Shown here one piece after another: positions 1-38,324 of a DNA stretch of 38,324 nt. The DNA is from a virus, in the IMG/VR virus record IMGVR_UViG_3300047496_000311, one strand, 5' to 3'. The notes below the pieces were generated by a model. That model saw only the letters and a program-made list of their open reading frames with translations. It was not told the origin of the DNA and did not search any database. How positions within the stretch are numbered: the first letter of the stretch is position 1; each line of letters begins with the position of its first letter. The position numbers were made by a program, and so were the translations under genes.

Positions 1-127
1 TAATTATCTCCCAGTAAATCATAATGGTCTTTCAGAAAGTTTATAATCTTAAACATAGAATAATGGTGCGGCTTGGTCTGGCCACAAATAAAGCGTCTCA
101 GTGTATTGATATTGATATTGATGTTCC
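1..127. repeat. terminal direct repeat, identical to 38198..38324 (circular-assembly overlap or short terminal redundancy)
   Basis: Compared base by base: 1-127 (taattatctcccagtaaatc...gatattgatgttcc) is the same string as 38198-38324. Unique length is 38197 bp. Confidence 0.95.
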
Positions 128-14702: not shown

Positions 14703-16283
14703 ATGTCAATTACGACTACTTCAACGCTACCAGCACCAGTACAGCAAAGCTTTAGCTATAAGCTGCTGTCGGTGCCGGTGCCTAATATGATCCATAAGAT
14801 CCCTGCTATGAAAAAGCAGATGCCTCGAAATGGTGGTACAACGTTGCGTATGAGAAGATATAATCCTTTAAATACAGCAATGGTTCCCCTTGGAAATAGT
14901 GGCATCACTCCTCCACCACAAAATTTAACTGCCGTGGATATTGACGCTCAGATCTCATTTTATGGGACTTACGTTCAAATTAACGAGCAAGTGACCTTGC
15001 AAAACCAAGATCCAGTTCTTAATGAATGTGCTGCACGTTTAGGTGTTTCTCTTCGTCAAACCGAAGACCAATTAACCTCAAATATGCTCGCATCTACTGC
15101 TTCATTTATCAACTGCGTTGGCGGTGTTAATGGCGACGTTCCGACAGAATTAACTCGTTCGGACGTTGATGAAGTGGTTCGTGCTCTTTTGGGCAATAAT
15201 GCTTACACCATCATGGATAACATTGAAGGTGATTTGAAATTCGGTACAGCGCCTAAAAAGAATGGGCGCTTTAAATCTTTTCTGATTGACTTAGAAGCCC
15301 TATGGGGTGATAAGGCGCAAGCAAGTTTATACTGTGCAGCGTGAACGACTAAGTGAAGAGACCTCGAAAGAGGATGCGATAGTCTGACCTCTATGGAAAC
15401 ATAGAGAGGGAGATCCGAAGAGGTTTCCCCGCCACGCAAGTGGTCATTAAAGTAACAGAATGGTTCGTGATGCTTACTTTGCATTATGTCATACCGATTT
15501 AACAGCAGATATGGATAATATTGCTGGTTTCATACAAAAGAACCAATATCCATCACCAATGAATGCACTGCGTTCAGAGTGGGGTTCTATTGGAAACCTT
15601 AGATTCTTAGTGTCTTCAATTGGCAGCGTTTTCCAAAATGCGTCCAACTTAGGTGCTAATATCTACAATATTTTCTGTGTTGGTATGGAGGCTAAAGTGT
15701 TAGGCCTCATAAAATTTTGGGTAATTGACTTGGAAACCGTAGTGGCTTCTAGCTAACCGGTGACAAGGGGCAAGCGCAAGCAGCCTGAACGACTAAACCC
15801 TGAGACCCAGAAATGGGATGTGATAGTCTGACCTGCATGGAAACATGCAGAGGGAGATCCGAAGAGGTTTCCCCGCCACGCAAGTGGTCATTAAAGTAAC
15901 AGAATTGTATGCATGTATAGAGCAAGATGGATATAGTGCTTCGTTCATAAACTAGATATGTGAACGTTAAATCTTGGGTAATTGACTTGGAACCCGTAGT
16001 GGCTTCTAGCTAACCGGTGACAAGGGGCAAGCGTGATTGCAGCCTGAACGACTAAACCCTGAGACCTCGAAAGAGGATGCGATAGTCTGACCTCTATGGA
16101 AACATAGAGAGGTGACCTGAAGTGGAAGCCCGCTCGCAAGAGTAGTAACACGTGTGATATAGACCGCCGATATATGATGGGCCATTGGCACTTAACGCAT
16201 CTGTAGGCTATAAAATGGCAGAGGTGCCTCGGATATGCAATGATTTATGGGTCCTAAATCTACGCTGCACCTTAGCAGTTTAA
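14703..16283 (+). CDS. major capsid protein (HK97-fold, N4 gp56-like pattern), four exons: join(14703..15254, 15463..15693, 15908..15948, 16157..16283) = 316 aa
   Basis: Exon 1 motifs: GGTTLRMRRYNPL...ITPPPQNLTAVDIDAQISFYGTYVQINEQV. The spliced junctions read GTAP|VRDAYFALCH, CVGMEA|YACIEQDGYSASF, then I-YRPPIYDGPLALNASVGYKMAEVPRICNDLWVLNLRCTLAV. Exon lengths 552+231+41+127 = 951 nt, in frame. Track ORFs 14703..15344 and 15460..15756 are exon plus intron read-through. Confidence 0.8.
15255..15462 (+). ncRNA. group I self-splicing intron 1 (208 nt, no ORF)
   Basis: P1: exon gcgccu (15249..15254) pairs with gggcgc (15264..15269), with a U.G pair at the splice site. P7 is gacta (15347..15351) with tagtc (15380..15384). 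P8 is CCTC-gaaa-GAGG (15362..15373). P9 is CTCTATG-gaaa-CATAGAG (15389..15406). CCAC-gcaa-GTGG hairpin. Terminal G at 15462. Possible P10: gaau (15260..15263) with exon 2 guuc. Confidence 0.8.
15694..15907 (+). ncRNA. group I self-splicing intron 2 (214 nt, no ORF)
   Basis: P1: exon gaggcu (15688..15693) pairs with ggccuc (15703..15708), U.G at the site. Same gaacgactaa ... gatagtctgacc core. P8 is CCCA-gaaa-TGGG and P9 is CTGCATG-gaaa-CATGCAG, both compensatory relative to intron 1. Terminal G at 15907. Confidence 0.8.
15949..16156 (+). ncRNA. group I self-splicing intron 3 (208 nt, no ORF; splits a codon)
   Basis: P1: exon cguucau (15942..15948) pairs with gugaacg (15960..15966), U.G at the site. 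Same core as introns 1 and 2. CTC-gcaa-GAG hairpin. Terminal G at 16156. Exon 3 ends AT and exon 4 starts A, giving an Ile codon and the only open downstream frame. Confidence 0.75.
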
Positions 16284-19469: not shown

Positions 19470-20105
19470 ATGCCATATAATGGAAATATTCCGCAGGCCA
19501 CCGACTTACTCTCAAGCTCGCAGCCATTAATACAGGGAAATTTTAGCGCAATTCAAACATTAATTGATGTCGATCATGTTGATTTTGCTTCAGCTAACCA
19601 GGGTAAACACTTTAGAGTTTCTCTTCCTGTGCAATCAGGACCTAGTTTTGATGCGACAGATACGGGATTATACTCAGCGCTTAACCCAAACAGTTCTCAA
19701 AATGAAATTTACGCATACCATTACAATTCTACGGGCACTTTACGAACCCCAATGACTGCTTCTGTGTTGGGAACTAATGCTGATCCGGGTAGTAATTCTG
19801 CGGGATGGAGCTATTTACCCTCAGGAATACTTTTGAAATGGGGAAGTGCTACGGTGACTTCTACCTCGGGAAGCCCTGTTCAAACGGTTACATTACCTAC
19901 AGGTGCAAGTATTCCAGCCTTTAGTAGAATATTTAGTGTTTTGTTGACCGTTAGTACCTCAACAAGTGCAGATAATAATAATTTCGTTATCTTGCAAAAC
20001 ATATCTGGTATCGGAACCAGCTTTAATGTGATTGCGGTAGCTCGATCATCTACACTGACTACGTATGTTCAGGCAACATTTCAATATCTTTGCATAGGTA
20101 TTTAA
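19470..20105 (+). CDS. tail or fibre-associated structural protein
   Basis: 211 aa. The N-terminus PQATDLLSSSQPLIQGNFSAIQTLIDVDHVDFASANQGKHFRVSL resembles the N-termini of phage tail and fibre proteins. Confidence 0.4.
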   Translation: MPYNGNIPQATDLLSSSQPLIQGNFSAIQTLIDVDHVDFASANQGKHFRVSLPVQSGPSFDATDTGLYSALNPNSSQNEIYAYHYNSTGTLRTPMTASVLGTNADPGSNSAGWSYLPSGILLKWGSATVTSTSGSPVQTVTLPTGASIPAFSRIFSVLLTVSTSTSADNNNFVILQNISGIGTSFNVIAVARSSTLTTYVQATFQYLCIGI

Positions 20106-26352: not shown

Positions 26353-26646
26353 TCAGTCGTTTTCTTTAATAGTTATTTCAGGCTCAATTATTTCAGACTC
26401 AACTAACACAAGTTTGTATCCAATAGCATGTAATATACTTAATACAGTTCTAAATTGAGCATGGGATTGCTTCTTACTAAATATCTTATAAAGGCTTTCC
26501 CTTCCAAGAGAAGACCTTCTGGCTACTATGGGATATTTTTGTTTTCTTACTATTTTCTCAACATGTGAAAGAAATATCTCTGTATCTTTTTGGTTAATCG
26601 AATTATTAAGAGATTCTATATCAGTAAGGCTTTTTTCTATATTCAT
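26353..26646 (-). CDS. HigA-family 'addiction module antidote'-like HTH protein (no cognate toxin seen)
   Basis: 97 aa. ARRSSLGRESLYKIFSKKQSHAQFRTVLSILHAIGYKLVLV matches the antidote-family core (gl.ReSLYkaLs..gNP.f.Tvlkvl.alGl.L.v). Confidence 0.65.
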   Translation of the reverse strand: MNIEKSLTDIESLNNSINQKDTEIFLSHVEKIVRKQKYPIVARRSSLGRESLYKIFSKKQSHAQFRTVLSILHAIGYKLVLVESEIIEPEITIKEND

Positions 26647-26867
26647 AGTTTTTCTGACATTTTTGTTAATGTTTTAATAATATGGATATATTCGTCTGCT
26701 TCTATCTCATTTGTAATTATTCCTATAATGGTATCCGCTATAGAAATATTTAATAGATTGGCCACAGAGTAGAGGTGCCCCACAACGTGTTCTAGGGAGT
26801 TTGCTTGTATGCCTTCAATTTTTTCTTGAAGTTCATTGATTTTTTTTGTTAATTCTATGTTTTCCAT
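26643..26867 (-). CDS. helical hypothetical protein
   Basis: ATG at 26867 after aagga (MENIELTKKINELQEKIEG...). ATGA overlap with the downstream HigA-like gene. Not RelE/HigB-like. Confidence 0.45.
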   Translation of the reverse strand: MENIELTKKINELQEKIEGIQANSLEHVVGHLYSVANLLNISIADTIIGIITNEIEADEYIHIIKTLTKMSEKL

Positions 26868-26875
26868 TTTGTTCC

Positions 26876-27049
26876 TTATTCTTTTAATGTCTTGTCCTCT
26901 TCCAACATTCTCATCTTTATGGCTCTTAATATCCACGTATTCATACTAATGCCACGTCGAGCGGCACGCTGTTTTACTTCACTATGGATAGCTGCGTCAA
27001 AATTTAAGATCAACTTCTTACTTTGTTTATGGGCCGTTTCTTTTTCCAT
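26876..27049 (-). CDS. ribbon-helix-helix (Arc/CopG-like) DNA-binding protein
   Basis: ATG at 27049 after ggaga. KKLILNFDAAIHSEVKQRAARRGISMNTWILRAIKMRMLEE is a typical RHH pattern. First gene after the promoter at 27074..27103. Confidence 0.6.
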   Translation of the reverse strand: MEKETAHKQSKKLILNFDAAIHSEVKQRAARRGISMNTWILRAIKMRMLEEDKTLKE

Positions 27050-27073
27050 ATCATCTCCGGTATAATTATTATA

Positions 27074-27103
27074 AATATACCATGATGTATTGATTGTTGT
27101 CAA
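27074..27103 (-). promoter_or_regulatory. strong sigma70-like promoter for the leftward RHH/HigA-like island
   Basis: On the minus strand, TTGACA (27103..27098), 18 nt, TGgTATATT (-10 hexamer at 27079..27074). Its -35 overlaps a plus-strand TTGTCA (27097..27102). Confidence 0.5.
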
Positions 27104-27156
27104 GTTGTCTTGCCATAGTTTTATCAAATCTATTTACTTTTATAGCGGAGAGCATT

Positions 27157-28419
27157 ATGTCAGTTAATCAAAATACGTATGATGTATTTAATCCAACCCA
27201 AAGCACGCTATTGGCGCCAGAACCTATTATTGCCAAAAGAGCGCCAACTACCAATGATAGAGCTGAATTGGGAACCATCTGGGTCAACGAAGTTTCTGGT
27301 GTTGGTTATATTCTCACTCAATTAAACCCATCACCATTATGGTCCACTGGTAATACAGGTGGCACAAGCGCTACTTCGTTTACCGTTAATCCCGGCGATT
27401 TAACTGTTACTGCAGGAAACGTTCTTGTATCTGCAGGCAACTTAACACTGACTGCGGGCAATGCTGCAATTGGTGGTACCTTGACGGTGACGGGAGCGGC
27501 TACCTTTAATGGAGGGGTGACCTTCTCTTCAACCGGCCAAATCGAACTCAATACAAGCTATAATGGCGCAGATGCAATTCAATTAAGCGCGAATGGTGGC
27601 ACAAGTGAAACGATCTTAATTGAAGCCCAACAGGGAACTGGCGATGCTTCTGTGGAGTTATTATCTACTGCTGGTGGTATTACTCTTTCTGCAGGCACTA
27701 AGATTGTCGCAACTTCTACGACGACCATGTCCTTGACTTCAACCAACAGTGCCATGACTTTAGCATCCGGAACGGGAGCCCTTAATATATCCAATGATGC
27801 CCATGCGACTACAGTCAATCTGGGAACTGGGGGGGGGGCTAAAACCGTTACCGTGGGATCGGTGAACTCGACAAGTGCGACAACTCTCCAGAGTGGCAGT
27901 GGTGCTTTACACGTCACCTCAACCAATGGTGCGATGACGCTTGCTTCTGGTACGGGCGCCTTAAACATTTCTGCGGATGCAGCGGCGACCACGATTAATC
28001 TGGCAACTGGAGGGGCATCTAAAGTATTAACGGTTGGATCGACGAATTCGACTTCATCGACAACGATTCAAGCAGGCACAGGTGGTATAGCTCTCAGTGC
28101 TGCGGGTATTGTTACTATGGCCCCTGCAACCCAAAGCTCAAACACTACAAGTATCACCTTGAATGCTAATGTCGGTGCAGCTACCTTTACCGGTTTAACC
28201 ACGGCTTCAGGAGCAACTGAAACATTAACATTGACCAATAGCTTGATATCTGCCACATCGGTTATGTTTGTAAGTGTTTCTAACTTGGGTTCAAATGACG
28301 CTCAAATGTCCTTAACTCGGGTGAAACAAGGTAGTGGCTCAGCAGTTATCCAAATTAAAAATAATGGCGCTGCTGCTTTGAATGGCAATGCGGTAGTTTC
28401 ATTCTGGATCATAGCGTAA
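27157..28419 (+). CDS. tail fibre or spike protein, beta-helix-like, with 2 x 60-aa tandem repeat
   Basis: ATG at 27157 after ggagag. LTVTAGNVLVSAGNLTLTAGNAAIGGTLTVTGAATFNGGVTF. N-terminal APTTNDRAELGTIWVN motif is shared with the fibres at 31067, 32269 and 33459. Confidence 0.65.
   Translation: MSVNQNTYDVFNPTQSTLLAPEPIIAKRAPTTNDRAELGTIWVNEVSGVGYILTQLNPSPLWSTGNTGGTSATSFTVNPGDLTVTAGNVLVSAGNLTLTAGNAAIGGTLTVTGAATFNGGVTFSSTGQIELNTSYNGADAIQLSANGGTSETILIEAQQGTGDASVELLSTAGGITLSAGTKIVATSTTTMSLTSTNSAMTLASGTGALNISNDAHATTVNLGTGGGAKTVTVGSVNSTSATTLQSGSGALHVTSTNGAMTLASGTGALNISADAAATTINLATGGASKVLTVGSTNSTSSTTIQAGTGGIALSAAGIVTMAPATQSSNTTSITLNANVGAATFTGLTTASGATETLTLTNSLISATSVMFVSVSNLGSNDAQMSLTRVKQGSGSAVIQIKNNGAAALNGNAVVSFWIIA
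27733..28092 (+). repeat. in-frame tandem repeat, 2 x 180 nt, inside the fibre gene
   Basis: LTSTNSAMTLASGTGALNISNDAHATTVNLGTGGGAKTVTVGSVNSTSATTLQSGSGALH and VTSTNGAMTLASGTGALNISADAAATTINLATGGASKVLTVGSTNSTSSTTIQAGTGGIA. Confidence 0.85.
27829..27838 (+). repeat. G10 homopolymer inside the fibre CDS
   Basis: Counted as gg + gggggggg at 27829..27838, encoding GGG(A) in frame. Longest homopolymer I found in the window. Confidence 0.9.
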
Positions 28420-28430
28420 GGGGTGAGCTT

Positions 28431-28793
28431 ATGTCAGCAACGACATTCACGTCTCTCAGGATTTATCCAGAGGCGCTTAGATCGGTCAGTTATTTATTGA
28501 TTTCAACGTTATACACGAATATTGGATCACCTTTAAGCAATGCGGCACGTATTATTCAATTGCAAAACACCACGGACGTAAATGTTTTCATTTCCTGGGA
28601 CGGGGTAAATGATCATCAATATTTGCCGGCAGGATCTTTTGTGTTACTCGATGTAACTGCAAATAAAAGTGTTTCCCAACAAGCATGGTTTGTTGGCGCA
28701 AGAACTCAATTCTATGCTAAGGTCGATTCAGGAATGCCAACCCAAGGAAGTATTTTCTTGACTACATTCTATGGATTAGTGGAGGGCGACTAA
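28431..28793 (+). CDS. hypothetical structural protein in the fibre cluster
   Basis: 120 aa, beta-rich, tightly packed between fibre genes. Confidence 0.5.
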   Translation: MSATTFTSLRIYPEALRSVSYLLISTLYTNIGSPLSNAARIIQLQNTTDVNVFISWDGVNDHQYLPAGSFVLLDVTANKSVSQQAWFVGARTQFYAKVDSGMPTQGSIFLTTFYGLVEGD

Positions 28794-29404
28794 TGTCACA
28801 AGCGGGTATATTGAGTGTGAGTGGTAACATCCCACCCATAGTAATAGAAACATTAACAGGTAATACTGGTGGGGCAGTTGGCCCCACCGGCCATAATATT
28901 AATGTCATTGGCAGTGGTACCATAAGTGTTGCGGGCAATCCCGGAACCAGTACCTTAACTATTAGCGCTTCTGGAAGTGTCTCCACCAGTTTTGTCACTA
29001 ATTCTGGCACTGCAACACCAAGTGCTGGGATATTAAATGTTTTGGGTGGAACCAATATAAGCACGACCGGCAGTGGTAATACCGTGACCATAAATGCTTC
29101 TAGTGTGGTTGTTATTCCCTCATACACGTTGGTTAATACGTCTCCCTATGTGGCCACGGGGACTGATTATTATTTGGCGGTCGATTCCTCTGGGGGTGCC
29201 ATTACCATTGATTTGCCTAATGCGCCGACCAACTATCGATCATTTATTATCAAAGATAAGACTGGATCGGCAGCAACACATAATATAACAATCACCACCG
29301 TAGGGGGCGTAGTCACCATAGATGGTTCAACTAGCTTTATCTTGAACACCGCGTATGAGTCAGCTACCATTCTTTTTGATGGCGCTAATTATCAAGTATT
29401 TTAA
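28793..29404 (+). CDS. short tail fibre protein (module X C-terminus)
   Basis: 203 aa. VTNSGTATPSAGILNVLGGTNISTTGSGNTVTI repeat. C-terminus SPYVATGTDYYLAVDSSGGAITIDLPNAP...IIKDKTGSAATHNITITTVGG is shared with 29418..30179. Confidence 0.6.
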   Translation: MSQAGILSVSGNIPPIVIETLTGNTGGAVGPTGHNINVIGSGTISVAGNPGTSTLTISASGSVSTSFVTNSGTATPSAGILNVLGGTNISTTGSGNTVTINASSVVVIPSYTLVNTSPYVATGTDYYLAVDSSGGAITIDLPNAPTNYRSFIIKDKTGSAATHNITITTVGGVVTIDGSTSFILNTAYESATILFDGANYQVF

Positions 29405-29417
29405 CTAAGGAAAAAAA

Positions 29418-30179
29418 ATGTCATATAAAAGAATAAGTCCCATACCGGTTGCTGAAGGCGGCAGTGGTGCTCTAACCCTTACTGGCGTTCTCATAGGAAA
29501 TGGTACGTCTGCATTCACAGGGAATACGGTCACTCAGTACGACGTTTTAGTTGGGGGCGCATCAAATGCCATTTCTTCCATAGCGCCAAGTTCTACAAGT
29601 GGTGTGCCATTAATATCCCAGGGTTCTTCAAGTAATCCGGCTTTTGGTACCGCAGTTGTTGCTGGTGGTGGAACAGGTGTCACTAGTTTTAATGCTAATG
29701 GAGTGGTTATATCAAATACTACGACGACTGGCGCACTGGCTTCTCTCGCTTTAACTGATGGACAAGTGGTTATTGGTTCAAGTGTAGGGGCGCCCGCTGC
29801 AGCAACATTAACCGCTGGCGCTAATATCTCCATAACCAATGGCCATAATACGATAACGATTGCTGCTAGTTCTGGTGGTGAAACGGTAAATTACACCGCG
29901 GTTAACCATGCGGCAAGTCCCTATACTGTGCTGAGCACGGATTATTATATCGGGGTGGATGCAAGTGGTGGTGTTGTAAGTATATTGTTACCCAATGCTC
30001 CTTCTACAGGAAGAGTGGTTGTGGTGAAAGATAAAACAGCATCTGCCGCTACAAATAATATTACAGTTACCACTGTTGGTGGAGCAGTAAATATTGACGG
30101 TGCCACAAGCTTTGTGATGAATACTAATTATGAATCGGCTAACTTTATATTTAATGGCGTAAGCTATGAGGTGTGGTAA
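29418..30179 (+). CDS. tail fibre protein (N-module B + C-module X)
   Basis: 253 aa. N-terminus MSYKRISPIPVAEGGSGALTLTGVLIGNGTSAFTGN is shared with 30179..31057. C-terminus is shared with 28793..29404. Confidence 0.6.
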   Translation: MSYKRISPIPVAEGGSGALTLTGVLIGNGTSAFTGNTVTQYDVLVGGASNAISSIAPSSTSGVPLISQGSSSNPAFGTAVVAGGGTGVTSFNANGVVISNTTTTGALASLALTDGQVVIGSSVGAPAAATLTAGANISITNGHNTITIAASSGGETVNYTAVNHAASPYTVLSTDYYIGVDASGGVVSILLPNAPSTGRVVVVKDKTASAATNNITVTTVGGAVNIDGATSFVMNTNYESANFIFNGVSYEVW

Positions 30180-31057
30180 TGGCATATAAAAGAATAAGCC
30201 CCTCTCCAGTCGTTGAAGGGGGAACAGGAGCACAGACGTTAACTGGTGTGCTTATAGGAAATGGAACTTCAGCAGTCACTGGTAACGCCGTAACTCAGTA
30301 TAATACCCTTGTTGGTGGGGCGAGTAATGCTATTTCATCAATTGCACCATCCGCCACCTCAGGTGTTCCTTTGGTTTCTGGTGGATCATCCGCTAACCCA
30401 TCCTATGGTACGGCGGTCGTGGCTGGTGGTGGCACCGGTATTACAAGTGCTACGGCTTATGCGGTTCTTTGTGGTGGTACTACTTCTACAGGGGCATTGC
30501 AATCTATAGCCGGTTTGGGATCTTCGGGACAGGTATTAACTTCTAATGGAGCATCGGCATTACCAACCTTCCAAAGTGCTGCTGCAGGATCTTTAATCCT
30601 TATTTCTACTCAAACAGTAAGTGGTGTTGCAGCGGTGACATTCACTAGTGGAATATCGAGTACCTATAATAACTATCTATTACTCTGTACTAATGTGACA
30701 AATGCCTCAAGCACTCCCACTATGTGGATCCAGATATCAACTAATGGTGGTAGTAGTTATATTGCCACTGGTTATTTGACAAATACTAATATTGCAACCA
30801 ACGGTATAGCTATAGGTGATGTAAACAGCACCGCTTTCTTTAGGTCCATAAACACAAATATATACAATTTAACTTCGGGTTCCGGATACGTTTCAACTAA
30901 TTCAATAAGCGTAGGCGGCTCCTCAGGGGCTGGTACTACTCAATCTTATTATAGTTATTATGCTACTGCTTCCCAGACGGTTAATGCGATACAATTAGTA
31001 CTATCGAGCGGAACAAATTTTAGTGGCACATTTTCACTTTATGGGTACGCAAAATAG
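30179..31057 (+). CDS. tail fibre protein (N-module B + unique C-module Z)
   Basis: TAATG overlap start at 30179 (MAYKRISPSPVVEGGTGAQTLTGVLIGNGTSAVTGN). 292 aa. Confidence 0.6.
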   Translation: MAYKRISPSPVVEGGTGAQTLTGVLIGNGTSAVTGNAVTQYNTLVGGASNAISSIAPSATSGVPLVSGGSSANPSYGTAVVAGGGTGITSATAYAVLCGGTTSTGALQSIAGLGSSGQVLTSNGASALPTFQSAAAGSLILISTQTVSGVAAVTFTSGISSTYNNYLLLCTNVTNASSTPTMWIQISTNGGSSYIATGYLTNTNIATNGIAIGDVNSTAFFRSINTNIYNLTSGSGYVSTNSISVGGSSGAGTTQSYYSYYATASQTVNAIQLVLSSGTNFSGTFSLYGYAK

Positions 31058-31066
31058 GGAGAAGTA

Positions 31067-32260
31067 ATGGCTAAAAGATACCCCCAAAATAGATTGACTG
31101 GAGTTAACCCCCTGAGCTATATGGGGGTTAATCCCTCAACGCCCCCTGACAGTGCGATTTATGGTTATGATCCAACCACCAATGATACCCAGTTTATTAT
31201 TGGTACTTTATGGATAAATCCCGTTGATGTAACGATATGGATGTTAACGGGCGTCAGTGATGCGATAGCAAATTGGGTTCAATTATATCCCGGCGGTGGT
31301 GCTGGTGCCACTGATTTTCCCACTAACTCTGGTACGGCAGTAGAGAGTGGTGGCGTTTTAAATATGCTGGGTGCGAACGTTATAGCCACTTCAGGAGCAA
31401 GCCATACCGTGACAGTGGCCCTCAGTAATGGTACCAATGGTCAAACACTGATTGGTGGCGGTTCATCACCGGTATGGGCTAATATTACGTCTAATGCAAG
31501 CACGATAACCATAACCAATGGTGCCAACAGCATCGATTTATCGGTTACCTCAGAGGCGGTAGATCAATTTGTTACCGATTCCGGAACTGCGGTTCCCGTC
31601 GGTGGGCATATTAACATACTGGGAACTAATCTGGTAACCACTTCCGGAAGCGGCCATACCGTTACGGTAGGCCTGACTGAAGGAACCAATGGTCAGCTAC
31701 CCATAGCAGCTACCGGTGGCAATGTTGCGTACGCAAATATCACTAGTCATGATGGCTCGGTAACTATTACTAATGGTGCTAATACCATTGACTTATCGGT
31801 GGGTGGTGGTGGTTCTTCGACCTCTAATTTCTTGTATTATCAAGCGACCAATTCATCTGCCCTTAGTGCGGGAACCTATTATCTGGGAGCGATAGTGGCA
31901 TTAACGAAGGTATTTGACGCAGGAAACAACGTTTCTCCGGGGAATGGTAGTGGTACAGCTGCGGTGTTTACTGCTCCCACAAAAGGAGTATATCTTCTTG
32001 GTGGTGCAGTGGCAAACGTGGTAGCCGGTTCTCCTGCTAGTATGCAGATGAATATCCAAACGTCACAGGGAGACTTTCCTTTATCTATGGGTAATACCTC
32101 TTTTAATAACGTTGATGAGCGCATCATCATTGAATTAAATCAAAACGATACGGTAATGTGGTCGTTTAACTGGAGTATTGGAGGCGCTACGCAAACCGTG
32201 GAAGGGGGATCTGTTCCGTATCTTACCTATATTTATGGTTATTTAGTTATGTCCACTTAG
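31067..32260 (+). CDS. tail fibre / receptor-binding protein with C1q/TNF-like C-terminal domain (paralogue 1)
   Basis: 397 aa. Two ~80-aa internal repeats (TNSGTAVESGGVLNMLGANVIATSGASHTVTV...ITNGANSIDLSV). C-terminus FLYYQATN...NGSGTAAVFTAPTKGVYLLGG...LNQNDTVMW...YLTYIYGYLV. Confidence 0.6.
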   Translation: MAKRYPQNRLTGVNPLSYMGVNPSTPPDSAIYGYDPTTNDTQFIIGTLWINPVDVTIWMLTGVSDAIANWVQLYPGGGAGATDFPTNSGTAVESGGVLNMLGANVIATSGASHTVTVALSNGTNGQTLIGGGSSPVWANITSNASTITITNGANSIDLSVTSEAVDQFVTDSGTAVPVGGHINILGTNLVTTSGSGHTVTVGLTEGTNGQLPIAATGGNVAYANITSHDGSVTITNGANTIDLSVGGGGSSTSNFLYYQATNSSALSAGTYYLGAIVALTKVFDAGNNVSPGNGSGTAAVFTAPTKGVYLLGGAVANVVAGSPASMQMNIQTSQGDFPLSMGNTSFNNVDERIIIELNQNDTVMWSFNWSIGGATQTVEGGSVPYLTYIYGYLVMST

Positions 32261-32268
32261 GGAGTCTC

Positions 32269-33450
32269 ATGGCGAAGAAATATCAGCAAAATTATCTCAG
32301 TAATCAACCCCTTGCATATATGGGCGTAGAGCCAAGCTCTCCACTCGATACCACGGTCCAGCGACGTGCACCGACCGTACGTGATACAGGGTTTGCCATT
32401 GGCACTTTTTGGTTACAACCCACTGGCATTGGTGTATGGATGTTGGTTAATATATCTCAGGGATCGGCAGTATGGGTTCCCTTGTATCCAAATAGTGGCG
32501 CGGGGGCCAGCTCTTTTCCCACTAACTCGGGAACAGCGACATCGTTAAATGGTGTCTTAAATATGCTTGGATCCAACGTTGTTACCACTTCTGGTGCGGG
32601 AAATACCGTGTCGATATCATTAGTGAATGGTACCAATGGTCAAATATTAATCGGTGGTGGTTCCAATCCCGCTTGGGAAAACATAACCTCCAACGATGGC
32701 AGCGTATCTATAACCAATGGTCCCAATAGTATTAATCTAGAGGTAAGCGCAGCGGGAGTTAATACCGTCGGTACTAACTCGGGAACCGCAACCGCATCAG
32801 GCAATTCCATTACGTTATCGGGTGCAAATATATTAACCACTTCAGCAAGTGGTAATACAGTGACGGTGGCATTCCGTGAGTCCACCAATGGTAAGGTTCC
32901 CATAGCAGCAACATCTGGTGCCACGGCGTATGCAAATATCACTTCTTTGGACTCCAGTCTGACGATAACCAATGGTCCCAACAGCATCGATATTATTGTC
33001 ACTGGTGGTGGCGGTGGTGGTTCTAAGCCAAACTTCTTCTATTATCAGGCGAGTAATTCACCGTCGTTGACACCGGGAATATATTTCTTGGGTACGTATG
33101 AAGCGTTAACTAAGGTAATAGACACTGGTAATAATGTGTATCCTGGTGATGGGTCGGGGACGGCTGCATCTTTTACTGCCCCTGTGGACGGTGTTTATTT
33201 AATTGGAGGGGGAGTTAACTCGCTTACCAATATCCAGCTTGAATTCTTTTTGGTAACAACATCAAGTGCTTTCGGTATTTATCAGGGAACGACCACATCA
33301 AGCGCTGGTATTGCGGGAGCGGTATTAGTGAACTTAAGTGCAAGTGACACCGTTAAGTGGGAGGCTATTACCGGTCTTTCTGGAATTATAAATGGCGGAA
33401 CACAGCCATATTATACATGGATATATGGTTATTTGGTTGCTCAGACATAG
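32269..33450 (+). CDS. tail fibre / receptor-binding protein with C1q/TNF-like C-terminal domain (paralogue 2)
   Basis: 393 aa. Same architecture. C-terminus FFYYQASN...DGSGTAASFTAPVDGVYLIGG...LSASDTVKW...YYTWIYGYLV. Confidence 0.6.
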   Translation: MAKKYQQNYLSNQPLAYMGVEPSSPLDTTVQRRAPTVRDTGFAIGTFWLQPTGIGVWMLVNISQGSAVWVPLYPNSGAGASSFPTNSGTATSLNGVLNMLGSNVVTTSGAGNTVSISLVNGTNGQILIGGGSNPAWENITSNDGSVSITNGPNSINLEVSAAGVNTVGTNSGTATASGNSITLSGANILTTSASGNTVTVAFRESTNGKVPIAATSGATAYANITSLDSSLTITNGPNSIDIIVTGGGGGGSKPNFFYYQASNSPSLTPGIYFLGTYEALTKVIDTGNNVYPGDGSGTAASFTAPVDGVYLIGGGVNSLTNIQLEFFLVTTSSAFGIYQGTTTSSAGIAGAVLVNLSASDTVKWEAITGLSGIINGGTQPYYTWIYGYLVAQT

Positions 33451-33458
33451 GGAGAGAC

Positions 33459-34751
33459 ATGGTATCATCAGTAAATAGAAGAGTCGCATCGGCGAATGCG
33501 CTCAGTTATATGGGAGTTAATCCCGCAACGCCACCAAATTTAGTTACGTACACATTTGCACCAGCCACCGATGACACGAATGCTCCCCTAGGGACTTTGT
33601 GGTTGGTTATTGATCCCACTAACCCAAGTCCCCCTACCCCACAAATATGGTTATTGGGAAACGTTGTTGGCTTTACGGCAACGTGGGTTGAACTTTATCC
33701 CGGCTCCGGATCTGGTGTGAATCAAATCGTCACCAATATGGGCACCGCTATCGAATCTATGGGCGCCATCAATATATTTGGCGTCAATGTTATAACCACC
33801 ACCGGCTCGGGCAACACCGTTACCATTGAAATGACCGATGGCACCGATGGCCAACTATTGATTGGTGGTGGCACCGAACCGCAGTGGGCGAATTTAACTT
33901 CAACGGGGGGAACGGTAACCATTAGCACAGGAGCCAATACCCTTAATATTGAGGCCACCGTAAGTGGTAACATCCATGACATAGTGACCGACAGCGGGAC
34001 AGCCACTGAGTCCAACAATATTATCAATATTCTTGGTGGTACTCTGATTAATACATCAGCAAGTGGTAATACGATAACGATTGCCATGGACAATGGCTTA
34101 AATGGACAGGTTCCCATAGCTGCCACGAGTGCCGCCACGGCGTATGCAAATCTAATGAGCCATGACGGATCTGTTTTTATAACCAATGGTCCCAATAGTA
34201 TAGATCTATCCGTGCAGGCATCAACCAAGAGCGGATTCTTTTATTATCAGGCAACCGATTACGTGGTTACTTATGGTACACAGACCACGTTCTATTTGGG
34301 CGCTTCAAAAATATTAACCAAGCTGTTTGATGTCAATAATGACGTCTATCCCGGGAATGGTACCTATAACTTCACCAACTATCCACCACCATCACCAATG
34401 CCCAATAGCTTTCCGGGAAGAGCTTATTTCACTGCTCCTGTCACGGGTACCTATATGTTTGGCACCGGTATACTCACGAATAATGGGAATCTTTTGGCAG
34501 CCCCGGCAATAGGTATAGGAACCTCCGAGATTGCAACTCAGTTTTATGCACTCTTTATTTTCCAGCCGCCAACGGGGCCACAGTTAACTATTTCCAATAG
34601 AGCTGAGACACTCATCAGTTTGACTAAAGGCCAGCAGGTATGGGTGGGAACACGGGTAGTAACGCGAGGCGGAGCTTCAACAGTCTATGGAGGATCTGGT
34701 AGTCCCAACTATGTTACGTATTTTTGGGGATTCCTTGTGTATCAATCATAA
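33459..34751 (+). CDS. tail fibre / receptor-binding protein with C1q/TNF-like C-terminal domain (paralogue 3)
   Basis: ATG at 33459 after gggaga. 430 aa. C-terminus FFYYQATD...GRAYFTAPVTGTYMFGTG...LTKGQQVWV...YVTYFWGFLV. Confidence 0.6.
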   Translation: MVSSVNRRVASANALSYMGVNPATPPNLVTYTFAPATDDTNAPLGTLWLVIDPTNPSPPTPQIWLLGNVVGFTATWVELYPGSGSGVNQIVTNMGTAIESMGAINIFGVNVITTTGSGNTVTIEMTDGTDGQLLIGGGTEPQWANLTSTGGTVTISTGANTLNIEATVSGNIHDIVTDSGTATESNNIINILGGTLINTSASGNTITIAMDNGLNGQVPIAATSAATAYANLMSHDGSVFITNGPNSIDLSVQASTKSGFFYYQATDYVVTYGTQTTFYLGASKILTKLFDVNNDVYPGNGTYNFTNYPPPSPMPNSFPGRAYFTAPVTGTYMFGTGILTNNGNLLAAPAIGIGTSEIATQFYALFIFQPPTGPQLTISNRAETLISLTKGQQVWVGTRVVTRGGASTVYGGSGSPNYVTYFWGFLVYQS

Positions 34752-34758
34752 CAAATCT

Positions 34759-34778
34759 GCCCTGGTTTTACCCAGGGC
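34759..34778. terminator. hairpin between convergent operons
   Basis: gccctgg (34759..34765), ttttac, ccagggc (34772..34778). Weak U-tracts on both strands. Confidence 0.4.
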
Positions 34779-34823
34779 AACAGCAGTATATTTAAAACAC
34801 ATTGTTTATGTTTTCATACATTA

Positions 34824-35051
34824 TTATTCTATATTACTTTTAGTTTTTTTTCTAGTCATTTCCTGCTTTTCAGATATTTTCCTGTCTACTTTTTCTATTT
34901 TGTAGTGAAGCGTATCTAATCGCTCGTTGTAATCAGAGTTAAATTCTAGTATTTCTGACTTCAGGCAGTTGATCTTGCATTTAACCCAGAGGGTTAATAA
35001 AAGAGATGCTAAAGCCATTACTGCGTAATATCCTATTTTAATCATTACCAT
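34824..35051 (-). CDS. small TM plus coiled-coil protein
   Basis: 75 aa. IGYYAVMALASLLLTLWV hydrophobic span, then a charged helix. Confidence 0.45.
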   Translation of the reverse strand: MVMIKIGYYAVMALASLLLTLWVKCKINCLKSEILEFNSDYNERLDTLHYKIEKVDRKISEKQEMTRKKTKSNIE

Positions 35052-37643: not shown

Positions 37644-38198
37644 TCACTTACTCGCGTAGTCCAGAACCTCACTAAATTTACTCCATGGCATCTCCTCAAG
37701 CCGTGAAATATTTAATCTTTTTAAGATTGCTAACTCTTTTTCCTTATTGTTTTGCAGTTTGAATCGAAGCAATCCAGCCTGTTTATCTGAGATGGTATTA
37801 CTCTTTGACGCTACTTCTCCATCATTATCAGCTTCGTCATCCTCTGCCGCTAATCCCAACAGCAACATAATGTGATACCGAGAATGATAGGTGCATGAAC
37901 CACCAAATGCCTGGTCATTACTTTGTGGATTATCTGCCGGAGTCAATGTAGAGACTGATGAGATGTACTGACCAGTCTCAATGTGAACGACGATGGTCTT
38001 TAACGCTTGTTTTTCACCAATGTGACACAACTCCTGGAAAAATTTTAATCCGTGCTTAGAAGTCATTTTTGACACGGTTTCAATTATCTGGGATCGAGAG
38101 GCGTAGGTACTTTTATGGCCCTTGGAGTCTTTCCGTATGATAACCCCAAACTCCTTGTGCATGGCATCAAGAGCTGCCATTATTTTATTTAGTTCCAT
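37644..38198 (-). CDS. erf: Erf-family single-strand annealing (recombination) protein
   Basis: Start taken at the ATG at 38198 (MELNK...) after gggaga. KSTYASRSQIIETVSKMTSKHGL...VVHIETGQYIS...QAFGGSCTYHSRYHIMLLLGLAAEDDEADNDG matches the ERF pattern (kY.Ya.l..i...v...l.khGl; GSa.TY.rRY.l...lGi..eDDD). Confidence 0.75.
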   Translation of the reverse strand: MELNKIMAALDAMHKEFGVIIRKDSKGHKSTYASRSQIIETVSKMTSKHGLKFFQELCHIGEKQALKTIVVHIETGQYISSVSTLTPADNPQSNDQAFGGSCTYHSRYHIMLLLGLAAEDDEADNDGEVASKSNTISDKQAGLLRFKLQNNKEKELAILKRLNISRLEEMPWSKFSEVLDYASK

Positions 38199-38324
38199 AA
38201 TTATCTCCCAGTAAATCATAATGGTCTTTCAGAAAGTTTATAATCTTAAACATAGAATAATGGTGCGGCTTGGTCTGGCCACAAATAAAGCGTCTCAGTG
38301 TATTGATATTGATATTGATGTTCC
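38185..38324 (-). CDS. 3' portion of the junction-spanning HTH gene (second representation of 1..127 plus the last 13 nt with the stop)
   Basis: The reading frame from 236 continues through the repeat and ends ...GDNYGTK-TAA at 38187..38185, overlapping the erf start. Confidence 0.6.
   Translation of the reverse strand, partial: NINININTLRRFICGQTKPHHYSMFKIINFLKDHYDLLGDNYGTK
38198..38324. repeat. terminal direct repeat, identical to 1..127
   Basis: See the feature at 1..127. Confidence 0.95.

What the first reader, a model, noticed from the sequence alone, without database searches (positions are those of the whole stretch)
27157..34751. A 7.6-kb arsenal of eight fibre-like genes built from shuffled modules
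About 20% of the genome is a run of fibre or spike-like genes that share modules combinatorially. N-module A (YMGV.P..P...D....GT.W......W.L....WV.LYP) is in 31067, 32269 and 33459, with a weaker copy in 27157. N-module B (YKRISP.PV.EGG.GA.TLTGVLIGNGTSA.TGN.VTQY..LVGGASNAISSIAPS) is in 29418 and 30179. The shaft repeat (T/D)NSGTA....G.LN.LG.N..TTS.SGNTVT occurs in 28793, 31067, 32269 and 33459. C-module X (SPY....TDYY..VD.SGG...I.LPNAP......KDKT.SAA..NIT.TTVGG) is in 28793 and 29418. C-module Y (C1q-like) is in 31067, 32269 and 33459, and a unique C-module Z is in 30179. Same anchor with different tip, and same tip with different anchor, suggests several receptor-binding proteins displayed at once or exchanged by recombination. 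That is unusual density for a 38-kb podovirus-like genome. The block also has its own control region (27050..27156), shared divergently with an RHH repressor-like gene.
Basis: seen in the sequence. Interest (0 to 1): 0.7.

Follow-up and report, generated by a model that had tools for sequence, protein, structure and literature searches.

The report
Modular multi-fibre operon of an uncultured phage
One fifth of this 38-kb uncultured phage genome is a single operon of tail-fibre genes built from a small set of reusable head, shaft, joint and tip modules; the repeated modules are real, but three of the genes probably form one segmented fibre, and the layout is typical of a large, undescribed phage family.

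Summary
Seven of the eight genes at 27157-34751 are fibre-like and share modules at highly significant levels. The eighth, 28431-28793 (here called Q), is a conserved 120-aa non-fibre protein.

- C-module Y is a C1q/TNF jelly roll by fold (TM 0.73-0.80).
- "C-module X" is probably not a tip. It has the fold of the XD1 domain of T4 gp9/gp10 and CBA120 TSP4. It is always the extreme C-terminus (20 of 20 proteins). It is almost always followed at once by a gene that starts MAYKRISPxPVxEGGTG (module B). Together with that B head it is the most conserved part of the block (56-60% identity, against 28-33% for tips Y and Z).
- I therefore read 28793, 29418 and 30179 as segments of one chained fibre that ends in tip Z. 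One old unequal crossover explains the shuffled look of these three genes.
- Four further fibres carry head A.

About 80 related 33-41 kb metagenomic phage genomes use the same grammar. Each has a divergent ribbon-helix-helix (RHH) gene upstream of the block and a block of about 8.5 kb. The gene density is therefore normal for the family.

Multi-RBP and branched systems are already known, so this is a new variant in an uncharacterised lineage. The host is unknown and virion incorporation is untested.

The parts
26876..27049 (-). Small ribbon-helix-helix (HicB/Arc-like) gene, divergent from the fibre operon; candidate regulator
   Evidence: Pfam HicB PF05534 at 27.8 bits (cutoff 21) and FitA-like RHH at 23 bits. 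PHROG Arc-like repressor E 6e-4. Homologues sit directly upstream of and divergent from the first fibre gene in at least 30 related genomes.
27050..27156 (.). Divergent intergenic control region. It holds the palindrome GGTATA-N11-TATACC at 27059-27081 and a minus-strand sigma-70-like site at 27103..27074.
   Evidence: Promoter scan: 11 of 12 matches plus TG on the minus strand only. Palindromes lie near the RHH start in most relatives. No + strand promoter was shown.
27157..28419 (+). Fibre 1: head A (aa 1-~90), then two ~60-aa P1 repeats and a small C-terminal domain
   Evidence: Module A profile E 5.5e-16; P1 profile hits. A-P1 is the first gene of the block in most relatives, with 2-12 P1 units. 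No Pfam, PHROG or PDB relatives.
28431..28793 (+). Q: conserved 120-aa non-fibre protein of unknown role (adaptor or assembly factor?). It always precedes the MSQAG-headed gene.
   Evidence: 107 homologues in 68 loci, 1-3 copies per genome. No Pfam, PHROG or PDB relatives. Its stop overlaps the start of 28793.
28793..29404 (+). Fibre segment 1: head C (MSQAG...TLTGNTGG), two shaft units, C-terminal module X (aa 99-203, nt 29087-29401)
   Evidence: PHROG 972 (tail fibre proximal subunit) E 4e-4.
29418..30179 (+). Fibre segment 2: head B (MSYKRISPIPVAEGG..., aa 1-135), then shaft, then C-terminal module X (aa 147-253, nt 29856-30176). It is the chimera created at a tandem-duplication junction.
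   Evidence: AF2 pLDDT 93-97 for X. Foldseek: CBA120 TSP4-N E 3e-6 at 25% identity, T4 gp10, KP1 baseplate chains, CpaA. Profile hit to the KP1 gp9-like 'baseplate wedge tail fiber connector', E 0.0034. blastn 29252-29700 vs 30027-30461, E 3e-30.
30179..31057 (+). Fibre segment 3: head B (aa 1-135) plus tip module Z (aa 136-292, nt 30584-31054)
   Evidence: Z matches PHROG 14820 (unknown function), E 5e-7. Z is found on A heads, on B heads and alone in relatives.
31067..32260 (+). Fibre 3: head A, two 84-aa shaft units, C1q/TNF-like tip Y (aa 250-397, nt 31814-32257)
   Evidence: AF2 pLDDT above 90 for A (aa 30-75) and Y. Foldseek: C1QL3, C1QL1, Caprin-2, APRIL, E about 1e-6, TM 0.73-0.80. BFVD: C1q-domain proteins of uncultured phages.
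32269..33450 (+). Fibre 4: paralogue, A-S-S-Y
   Evidence: 53% identical to 31067. Pfam C1q at 13.5 bits, below cutoff. The tip is the most diverged part.
33459..34751 (+). Fibre 5: paralogue, A-S-S-Y with a larger tip
   Evidence: 39-42% identical to the other two. Pfam C1q at 14.9 bits, below cutoff.
34757..34780 (.). GC-rich hairpin between the end of the fibre operon and the convergent minus-strand genes; possible bidirectional terminator
   Evidence: Terminator-like scan, 9-bp stem with 6 GC pairs. Terminator-like sites are not enriched over shuffles.

Best explanation
The block is the host-recognition operon of an uncultured, probably podovirus-like phage (N4-gp56-type capsid protein, P22-type portal). 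It belongs to a large metagenomic family of 33-41 kb genomes.

The operon is written in a modular grammar:
- Conserved N-terminal heads attach a protein to the virion or to another fibre protein. These are A, B (MAYKRISPxPVxEGGTG) and C (MSQAG...).
- Repetitive shaft units follow the heads.
- Variable C-terminal tips end the fibres. These are the C1q/TNF-like Y, Z, and the C-terminus of the P1-repeat protein.

In this genome, four A-headed trimeric fibres are each anchored through head A. They are 27157 and the three C1q-tipped paralogues 31067, 32269 and 33459.

The genes 28793, 29418 and 30179 are proposed to build one segmented, or branched, fibre. The C-terminal X domain has a gp9/gp10/TSP4 XD1-type fold. 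In this model it acts as a socket for the invariant, positively charged B head of the protein encoded next. The chain would be C-head-X : B-shaft-X : B-Z, and only Z contacts the host. Q, which always precedes the C-headed gene, would be an adaptor or assembly factor.

New combinations arise in two ways. One is unequal crossover within the shaft repeats; one such event created 29418. The other is exchange between genomes, helped in some relatives by homing endonucleases sitting exactly at the X|B junction. The small divergent RHH protein probably regulates the operon.

Shown: module homologies, the two folds, the synteny rules, the conservation pattern, and the family-wide distribution.
Inferred: virion location, the X:B contact, the roles of Q and the RHH protein, and simultaneous display of several fibres.
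For: Modules are real: BLASTP E 1e-40 to 1e-128, family profiles, and no cross-similarity between module profiles.

Tail-fibre identity:
- PHROG tail-fibre families match X-bearing proteins.
- A Peptidase_S74 intramolecular chaperone (39-42 bits, cutoff 22) sits at the C-terminus of C-headed and B-like-headed proteins in relatives.
- The tip has the C1q/TNF fold, as in many phage C1q proteins.
- C1q domains are reported as putative variable RBPs in phage metagenomic islands (PMC7468147).

X as a joint:
- Foldseek matches to CBA120 TSP4-N (E 3e-6, 25% identity over 105 columns), T4 gp10, KP1 baseplate chains and CpaA.
- A profile match to the gp9-like 'baseplate wedge tail fiber connector'.
- PMC8825819 places this fold (XD1) in gp9, gp10 and TSP4, which connect fibres and spikes.
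- X is the extreme C-terminus in 20 of 20 proteins.
- 15 of 20 X genes are followed at once (from a short overlap to about 55 nt) by a B-headed gene. In three of the five exceptions one ORF lies between X and the next B-headed gene; two of these ORFs are GIY-YIG endonucleases.
- The strict B-head motif occurs in 11 of 16 X-bearing genomes and in 0 of 64 without X (Fisher 4e-10).
- Within the same 16 genomes, X is 56% and the B head 60% conserved, against A 37%, Q 40%, Z 33% and Y 28%.
- X is always acidic (-2 to -8) and the first 12 residues of B carry +1 or +2. This is like the charge complementarity described for TSP4 XD3 with TSP1 and for G7C (PMC8825819, PMC6872550).
- The 'anchor plus gp10-like domain plus second RBP with a conserved N-terminal peptide' scheme is established for other phages (PMC6872550).

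Duplication: the blastn match 29252-29700 vs 30027-30461 crosses the gene boundary.

Tip diversification: among the three paralogues the Y tip is the least conserved segment, 34-47% against 57-60% for shaft unit 2.

RHH: Pfam HicB above cutoff, with conserved divergent synteny in at least 30 genomes.
Against: - No experimental or structural evidence places any of these proteins in the virion.
- The X fold is the XD1 type. Its function in TSP4 and gp10 is described as unclear or a spacer. The proven docking modules are XD2 and XD3 (PMC8825819).
- The same fold binds glycans in CpaA and StcE, so X could be a conserved carbohydrate-binding tip.
- X:B co-variation is not significant (Mantel r 0.18, p 0.14).
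- No fused X-B protein ('Rosetta stone') was found.
- X-B co-occurrence may reflect shared descent of one clade.
- L081 has 3 B heads for 2 X domains, and L054 has X without B.
- Both shafts were modelled as monomers with low confidence.
- No + strand promoter was detected.
- What head A and head C bind is unknown. Head A has no PDB or PHROG relatives; head C was not searched on its own.
Confidence: 0.6

Rival explanations
1. One reading: seven or eight independent receptor-binding proteins. Each attaches directly to the tail through its own N-terminal anchor and each ends in its own receptor-binding tip. X would be a conserved glycan-binding tip shared by 28793 and 29418. All would be displayed at once or swapped by recombination.
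For: Each gene has its own SD and start codon and an intact ORF. The XD1 fold is a glycan-binding module in CpaA and StcE (6o38 is among the Foldseek hits). X:B co-variation is not significant. Phages with many independent RBPs are known (PMC6872550).
Against: - X is the most conserved module of the block (56%, against 28-33% for Y and Z), which is unusual for a receptor tip.
- X is always the extreme C-terminus and is followed by a B-headed gene. B never occurs in genomes without X.
- Some relatives encode proteins of only 160-172 aa that are just C-head plus X, which looks like a connector.
- 28431 has none of the fibre modules.
Confidence: 0.25
2. The proteins are fibres on another part of the particle, such as head or neck fibres or whiskers (decoration or reversible adhesion), and not the primary tail receptor-binding apparatus. 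The real tail fibre would be encoded in the main structural module, for example at 19470-20105.
For: The block is physically separated from the main structural module by minus-strand genes. 19470-20105 has weak tail-fibre matches (PHROG 1396 E 9e-5; Pfam Gp53-like_C E 0.01). C1q-tipped fibres decorate spores and giant-virus capsids (BclA and pandoravirus hits). Head A has no known tail-anchor relatives.
Against: PHROG tail-fibre hits. The gp9/gp10/TSP4-type fold and the Peptidase_S74 chaperone of relatives are typical of tail fibres and spikes. Spending 20% of a small genome on decoration would be surprising. In relatives only the RHH gene separates the block from the structural genes.
Confidence: 0.1
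3. Only one or a few genes are expressed at a time. The rest would be a reservoir of cassettes for switching host range by programmed rearrangement (Mu Gin / P1 Cin-type inversion, or DGR-type mutagenesis).
For: There are tandem paralogues with diverged tips. Repeated shaft sequences could support recombination.
Against: - All genes are on one strand, with SD sequences and tight spacing.
- There are no significant inverted repeats in 26800-35000.
- No invertase or reverse transcriptase was found among the ORFs scanned with Pfam or PHROGs.
- The paralogues share only about 66% nucleotide identity.
- The block is 99.99% identical in contigs from other samples.
Confidence: 0.05

Closest known systems
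Branched multi-tailspike complexes using T4 gp10-like XD domains (CBA120 TSP1-4, G7C gp63.1/gp66, K1-5/SP6 adaptor gp37, Klebsiella KP32/Menlow/PhiK64-1 groups)
   Same: Several RBP genes lie in one cluster. One protein carries a gp9/gp10-type beta domain. The partner RBPs carry short, conserved, positively charged N-terminal sequences. Heads are conserved and distal parts are exchanged (PMC8825819, PMC6872550).
   Different: Here the gp10/gp9-like domain is of the XD1 type and sits at the extreme C-terminus of short proteins that have no enzymatic or tip domain. It can be repeated serially (X:B-X:B-tip). The tips are C1q/TNF jelly rolls and unknown folds, not beta-helix depolymerases. The heads (A, B, C) have no sequence relatives in PDB, Pfam or PHROGs. 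The genome is only 38 kb.
T4 long tail fibre (gp34-gp35-gp36-gp37 joined end to end and attached to the connector gp9)
   Same: This is a fibre assembled from separately encoded segments joined head to tail. X resembles the gp9 middle domain (profile hit to a gp9-like connector), and PHROG 972 'tail fiber proximal subunit' matches X.
   Different: There is no sequence homology of the shafts or tips to gp34-37. The segments are much shorter (203-292 aa). The joint is inferred, not shown.
C1q-domain putative receptor-binding proteins of environmental phages (metagenomic-island genes; 'C1q domain containing protein [uncultured Caudovirales phage]')
   Same: There is a C-terminal C1q/TNF jelly roll on a fibrous stalk, the tip is hypervariable between related genomes, and paralogues occur together.
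   Different: The sequences do not reach the Pfam C1q threshold (13.5-14.9 bits against 23.7). The stalk is a beta-type repeat, not collagen. Three tandem copies share a family-specific head A.
P22 immI region (mnt / arc-ant next to tailspike gene 9); recalled from memory, not tested
   Same: A small RHH repressor gene is transcribed divergently from a unit that leads into the receptor-binding gene, in a phage with a P22-type portal.
   Different: No ant-like gene is present. Similarity is only at the RHH family level (Pfam HicB, PHROG Arc-like). Regulation here is untested.

Membership tests
C1q/TNF-like jelly-roll domain (Pfam PF00386 C1q) | Sequence match to PF00386 at or above the gathering score (23.7 bits) | tested here: not met
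   32269 scores 13.5 bits and 33459 scores 14.9 bits; 31067 gives no hit. Some homologues in the database do carry PF00386.
C1q/TNF-like jelly-roll domain (Pfam PF00386 C1q) | Ten-stranded jelly-roll fold superposable on gC1q/TNF domains | tested here: met
   AF2 model of 31067 aa 250-397, pLDDT above 90. Foldseek against PDB: C1QL1/3, Caprin-2, Cbln, APRIL, EDA, with E about 1e-6 and target TM 0.73-0.80.
C1q/TNF-like jelly-roll domain (Pfam PF00386 C1q) | Trimeric assembly of the globular head | not testable with these tools
   Only monomer predictions were available.
gp10-like (XD) branched RBP systems | Domain with the fold of T4 gp9/gp10 / CBA120 TSP4 XD domains | tested here: met
   AF2 model of 29418, X region pLDDT 93-97. 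Foldseek: 7rej/7rfv/7rfo TSP4-N E 3e-6 to 1e-4, 5iv5 gp10 E 7e-3, KP1 baseplate chains E 4e-5. HMM hit to the gp9-like connector 9f4a_LN, E 0.0034.
gp10-like (XD) branched RBP systems | The domain is of the XD2/XD3 type shown experimentally to dock partner trimers | tested here: inconclusive
   The aligned length (about 100-108 columns), the CpaA 6o38 hit and the match to the gp9 middle domain all point to XD1. The role of XD1 is described as unclear or a spacer in PMC8825819. Target coordinates of the Foldseek alignments were not available.
gp10-like (XD) branched RBP systems | Partner RBP(s) with a conserved N-terminal peptide, encoded nearby | tested here: met
   MAYKRISPxPVxEGGTG starts the gene right after X in 15 of 20 cases. 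The strict motif is found in 11 of 16 X-bearing genomes and in none of 64 without X. It is 60% conserved.
gp10-like (XD) branched RBP systems | Physical binding of the partner to the XD domain | not testable with these tools
   No multimer prediction or experiment was possible. The co-variation test was not significant.
Tail fibres/spikes with Peptidase_S74 intramolecular chaperone | C-terminal PF13884 domain | tested here: not met
   No PF13884 hit in any of the eight window proteins. It is present in relatives L001:2004-5849 (41.9 bits) and L011:6498-9989 (39 bits), which carry the same head types.
Invertible tail-fibre switches (Mu Gin / P1 Cin) | Site-specific invertase plus inverted repeats flanking alternative fibre C-termini on opposite strands | tested here: not met
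   All genes are on the + strand. Only chance-level imperfect inverted repeats were found. No recombinase appears among the annotated ORFs.
Diversity-generating retroelement targeting a fibre tip | Reverse transcriptase gene and template/variable repeat pair | tested here: not met
   No RT domain was found in the eleven non-fibre ORFs of 300 aa or more: nine were scanned with Pfam here and two are covered only by JGI precomputed Pfam hits. Self-blastn of the block shows only about 66% paralogue matches and no near-identical TR/VR pair.
Ribbon-helix-helix transcriptional regulators (Arc/Mnt/HicB-C type) | Sequence match to an RHH family above threshold | tested here: met
   Pfam HicB PF05534 at 27.8 bits (cutoff 21). 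FitA-like RHH at 23 bits, below its cutoff of 27. PHROG Arc-like repressor E 6e-4.
Ribbon-helix-helix transcriptional regulators (Arc/Mnt/HicB-C type) | Binding to an operator that controls the adjacent promoters | not testable with these tools
   A palindrome at 27059-27081 overlaps the minus-strand -10 element, and palindromes occur in relatives. Palindromes are easy to find in AT-rich DNA, so this is only suggestive.

The most novel reading that the evidence does not exclude
The family uses a plug-and-socket system for building fibres from separately encoded segments. The socket is an XD1-type domain at the extreme C-terminus. The plug is the near-invariant MAYKRISPxPV N-terminus of the next gene product. 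Fibres could then be lengthened (X:B-X:B-tip) or re-tipped by a single unequal crossover, or by endonuclease-promoted exchange at the X|B gene junction. The whole receptor-binding operon would sit under a dedicated RHH switch. This would give the so-far enigmatic XD1 fold a docking function and define a new, portable assembly rule for engineering phage host range.
Probability: 0.35. Interest if true: 0.65.

Novelty: new variant of a known kind. Interest (0 to 1): 0.5.

Why it matters
Receptor-binding proteins decide which bacteria a phage can infect. The rules by which several of them are mounted on one particle are known for only a few cultured phage groups.

This block, with about 80 related genomes, gives a compact grammar that can be read from sequence alone:
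- four conserved head types;
- a conserved C-terminal connector;
- variable C1q-like and other tips.

The lineage is abundant and environmental, and it has no cultured representative and no nucleotide or fibre-protein match in GenBank phages.

If the X:B joint is real, it offers a simple handle for predicting virion architecture from metagenomes and for swapping tips in engineered phages. It would also assign a function to the XD1 domain of gp9/gp10/TSP4.

If the joint is not real, the block is still a clear natural example of fibre evolution by tandem duplication, unequal crossover in shaft repeats and exchange between genomes.

Tried and rejected
- Megablast of the block against 50,697 GenBank phages gave no match. 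tblastn of 31067 and 29418 against the same set also gave none. There is therefore no annotated relative to lean on.
- PDB sequence searches with 29418, 27157 and 30179, and with profiles of Q and head A, gave nothing significant. PHROGs gave nothing for Q or A.
- Host identification failed. The genome-contig scan returned only five short or inconsistent MAG contigs (Nitrosopumilaceae, Deltaproteobacteria, Crocinitomicaceae, Patescibacteria, Desulfonema). These look like mis-binned phage contigs. No tRNA genes were found. The nearest TerL relatives are uncultured spring phages (41-42% identity), then Stenotrophomonas, Acetobacter and Pelagibacter phages (38-40%). The host stays unknown.
- I asked whether Z is a diverged Y, or whether any two modules are related. 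hhalign shows no relation.
- I looked for a Rosetta-stone fusion, meaning an X domain fused upstream of the internal B-like repeats in long fibres of relatives. None was found.
- Mirror-tree (Mantel) co-variation of X against the B head was r 0.18, p 0.14, which is uninformative.
- A global nucleotide alignment of the two duplication units gave 63.7% identity against 56-59% for the flanks, which is too weak to use. I relied on the local blastn HSP and the protein identities instead.
- Invertible-segment and DGR models were rejected.
- The sigma-70 scan found no + strand promoter. The totals of promoter-like and terminator-like sites do not exceed shuffles.
- Iterating the module B profile drifted into the shaft repeats. 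I therefore used a non-iterated 60-aa head profile and a strict regular expression.

Full report
WHAT THE WINDOW IS

The window is a circularly assembled phage genome of about 38.2 kb. Its two ends overlap by 127 nt. It encodes a large terminase, a P22-type portal (Pfam PF16510, E 7e-80), a major capsid protein that JGI labels N4-gp56 family, ERF, RusA and DnaB. It has no nucleotide match among 50,697 GenBank phages. The portal is only about 22-25% identical to podophages of Rhizobium, Pseudomonas and Burkholderia. TerL is at best 42% identical to uncultured spring-water phages. The same genome was assembled at 99.99% identity from other samples. The host could not be determined.

CHECK OF THE OBSERVATION

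Eight tightly packed + strand genes fill 27157-34751. That is 19.9% of the genome. Each gene has a Shine-Dalgarno sequence, and JGI gene calls give the same coordinates.

- Module X: the C-termini of 28793 and 29418 are 55% identical over 130 aa (E 9e-40).
- Module B: the N-termini of 29418 and 30179 are 68% identical over 137 aa (E 4e-50).
- 31067, 32269 and 33459 are full-length paralogues at 39-53% identity.
- The 28793 mid-region matches their shaft unit at 53-56% over about 40 aa (E about 1e-7).
- Module A: the N-termini of 27157 and 31067 are 33% identical over 99 aa (E 1e-4). Against a family profile this becomes E 5.5e-16.

The shaft motif gives no hits in 2000 shuffles. The module profiles are mutually unrelated in profile-profile comparison, so the matches are not compositional artefacts.

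- 28431-28793 (here called Q) is not fibre-like.
- 28793 has its own conserved head (here called C), MSQAG...TLTGNTGGxVGP.

FOLDS

An AlphaFold2 model of 31067 was built with 40 homologues. It is confident for a small beta domain in head A (aa 30-75) and for the C-terminal 150 aa. The C-terminal domain superposes on gC1q and TNF-family domains: C1QL1/3, Caprin-2, cerebellin, APRIL and EDA, with E about 1e-6 and TM 0.73-0.80. In the viral structure library the top hits are 'C1q domain containing protein [uncultured Caudovirales phage]'.

The model of 29418 is confident (pLDDT 93-97) for module X. X does not look like a known receptor tip. Its best structural matches are the N-terminal assembly region of CBA120 tailspike 4 (E 3e-6, 25% identity over 105 columns), baseplate chains of Klebsiella phage KP1, T4 gp10 and CpaA. 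A sequence profile of X also hits the gp9-like 'baseplate wedge tail fiber connector' of KP1 (E 0.0034, residues 59-146). According to PMC8825819 this is the XD1 fold shared by T4 gp9, T4 gp10 and TSP4. These are proteins that connect fibres or spikes to the baseplate and to each other. That paper stresses that docking has been demonstrated for XD2 and XD3. It also notes that the role of XD1 is unclear and that the same fold binds glycans in CpaA and StcE.

THE FAMILY AND ITS GRAMMAR

Homologues of 31067 and 29418 are abundant in metagenomes. There were 180 and 1489 hits, many on contigs of 33-41 kb. I fetched 79 related loci from IMG/VR plus one closer genome. I then mapped module profiles on all their ORFs.

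The same order recurs across the family:
1. a small minus-strand RHH gene;
2. an A-headed protein with 2-12 P1 repeats;
3. one to three Q genes;
4. a C-headed protein;
5. either B-headed proteins, or small proteins of about 220 aa with C1q-type tips and a fourth conserved head (MAKINAINNKSxELTIDPGASGDSF);
6. one to three A-shaft-shaft-C1q fibres.

Heads and C-terminal modules occur in many combinations: A-S-X, A-X, B-S-X, B-Y, B-Z, B-P1-Y, A-S-S-Z, A-Y, and Z alone. Combinatorial shuffling is therefore real at the family level.

In 52 relatives with a complete block, the block spans a median of 8.5 kb and has a median of 5 module-bearing genes (range 1-9). The window is gene-rich but ordinary in total length for this family.

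Two relatives encode proteins with C-type or B-like heads that end in a Peptidase_S74 intramolecular chaperone above the Pfam threshold. This domain is a hallmark of tail fibres and spikes.

WHY X IS PROBABLY A JOINT

Five independent observations support this.
1. X is the extreme C-terminus in all 20 non-redundant proteins that carry it. Some of these proteins are only 160-172 aa, that is, head C plus X and nothing else.
2. In 15 of 20 cases the next gene begins at once (from a short overlap to about 55 nt) and starts with MAYKRISPxPVxEGGTG. In three of the five exceptions one ORF lies between X and the next B-headed gene. Two of these ORFs are GIY-YIG/NUMOD3 homing endonucleases.
3. The strict B-head motif is found in 11 of 16 X-bearing genomes and in none of 64 genomes without X (Fisher 4e-10). 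These genomes are not phylogenetically independent.
4. Within the same 16 genomes, X (56%), the B head (60%) and the C head (52%) are far more conserved than head A (37%), Q (40%), Z (33%) and Y (28%). Receptor tips are normally the least conserved parts. Among the three paralogues of this genome, Y is indeed the most diverged segment.
5. X is always net acidic, and the first 12 residues of B always carry +1 or +2. This is the kind of charge complementarity described for TSP4 XD3 with TSP1 and for G7C.

The scheme 'first protein with a gp10-like domain, second RBP with a short conserved N-terminal peptide' is the accepted model for branched RBP systems in K1-5/SP6, G7C, CBA120 and several Klebsiella phage groups (PMC6872550).

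Against the joint model:
- X is of the XD1 type, not XD2/XD3.
- X:B co-variation is not significant.
- No fused X-B protein exists.
- There are exceptions in stoichiometry: L081 has 3 B heads for 2 X domains, and L054 has X without B.

The contact is an inference.

HOW THE PATTERN IN 28793, 29418 AND 30179 AROSE

A blastn self-comparison finds one contiguous match, 29252-29700 against 30027-30461 (65.7% over 449 nt, E 3e-30). It runs from the end of X, through the intergenic spacer, into the start of B. At the protein level the duplicated unit is about 790 nt and the two copies abut inside 29418. A single unequal crossover between shaft repeats of an ancestral pair [C-shaft-X][B-shaft-Z] yields exactly [C-shaft-X][B-shaft-X][B-shaft-Z].

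The event is old. B-shaft-X proteins of 234-253 aa are widespread in the family, and the closest distinct genome has [A-S-X][B-S-X][B-Y]. In the joint model this inserts one extra segment into the fibre.

PROPOSED MECHANISM

Four fibres attach through head A. These are 27157, with a P1-repeat shaft, and three C1q-tipped paralogues with diverged tips. One segmented fibre is built from 28793, 29418 and 30179 through X:B joints and ends in tip Z. Q is an adaptor or assembly factor for the C-headed protein.

The phage would thus present about five different distal domains, consistent with a broadened or layered host recognition. Location on the virion, simultaneous display, and the partners of heads A and C are all untested.

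REGULATION

The 57-aa minus-strand gene 26876-27049 is an RHH protein (Pfam HicB at 27.8 bits, cutoff 21; PHROG Arc-like). Its homologues lie directly upstream of, and divergent from, the first fibre gene in at least 30 related genomes. Palindromes lie close to its start; in the window this is GGTATA-N11-TATACC at 27059-27081.

However, the only strong sigma-70-like site points towards the RHH gene, and no + strand promoter was found. Promoter-like sites are not enriched over shuffles. A hairpin at 34757-34780 follows the last fibre gene.

RIVALS

- Fibres on the head or neck cannot be excluded (about 0.1).
- Programmed switching by inversion or a DGR is unlikely: all genes are on one strand, there are no inverted repeats, and no invertase or reverse transcriptase was found.

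NOVELTY AND SCORE

Multi-RBP clusters, branched complexes, modular exchange and C1q-type phage tips are all known (PMC8825819, PMC6872550, PMC7468147). The new elements are:
- the lineage, which has no cultured or annotated relative;
- the head families;
- the C-terminal, serially repeatable XD1-type connector paired with an invariant N-terminal plug;
- the family-wide RHH-fibre operon arrangement.

I rate this a new variant of a known kind, with interest 0.5.

SIDE OBSERVATION

The major capsid gene is split into four exons (14703-15254, 15463-15693, about 15908-15949, and 16158-16274). Three homologous elements of about 210 nt separate them. These elements match the Rfam group I intron model below its threshold and show compensatory stem changes.

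Noticed in passing
window 14703-16277: The major capsid protein gene (labelled N4-gp56 family by JGI) is interrupted three times. An intron-less homologue (P0243, 314 aa, about 90% identical) maps onto four exons: 14703-15254, 15463-15693, about 15908-15949 and 16158-16274. The three inserts (about 208-214 nt) are homologous to each other and have stop codons in all frames. They show compensatory changes in GAAA-capped stems. They match Rfam Intron_gpI over the full model at 24-26 bits (E 3e-4 to 1e-3, below the gathering score of 50). Many relatives have capsid genes truncated at about 200 aa in gene calls, so such introns may be common in the family.
   Followed up: partly
L044:2317-2922 and L057:568-1215: In two relatives, GIY-YIG + NUMOD3 homing-endonuclease genes are inserted exactly between the X-ending gene and the B-headed gene. 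This is a module boundary where exchange would re-pair sockets and tips.
   Followed up: partly
window 28431-28793 and 68 related loci: Q is a conserved family of about 115-aa proteins, probably all-beta. It occurs in 1-3 tandem copies, always just upstream of the MSQAG-headed fibre gene. It has no Pfam, PHROG or PDB relatives and its function is unknown.
   Followed up: partly
related loci, e.g. L007:8142-9466, L058:7678-9674, L038:7369-9367: Genomes that lack X and B instead carry 2-3 tandem small proteins (about 220 aa) with C1q-type tips. These have a fourth conserved head, MAKINAINNKSxELTIDPGASGDSF, and lie downstream of a long C-headed fibre. This looks like a second type of branch system in the same family.
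   Followed up: partly
window 26353-26867 (minus strand): Downstream of the RHH gene, on the same strand, lies a 74-aa ORF followed by a 97-aa protein. The 97-aa protein matches the 'probable addiction module antidote protein' family (Pfam dnstrm_HI1420, 44.6 bits). This may be a toxin-antitoxin-like pair carried by the phage. It is absent from the closest distinct relative, L001.
   Followed up: no
window 29670-29864 (29418 aa 85-149): The shaft of 29418 matches Pfam Pgp3_N weakly (E 0.064), and two homologues carry that family in precomputed hits. From memory, Chlamydia Pgp3 also combines a fibre-like N-terminal region with a TNF-like C-terminal domain, so it may share ancestry with this kind of phage fibre.
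   Followed up: no
window 1-127 and 38198-38324: The two ends of the window are identical over 127 nt, so the contig is a circular assembly or terminally redundant genome of about 38.2 kb. Contigs from other samples are 99.99% identical.
   Followed up: yes
window 19470-20105: A 211-aa gene in the main structural module has weak tail-fibre matches (PHROG 1396 E 9e-5; Pfam Gp53-like_C E 0.01). It is a further fibre-like gene outside the block and might be the docking partner of head A or an independent fibre.
   Followed up: no
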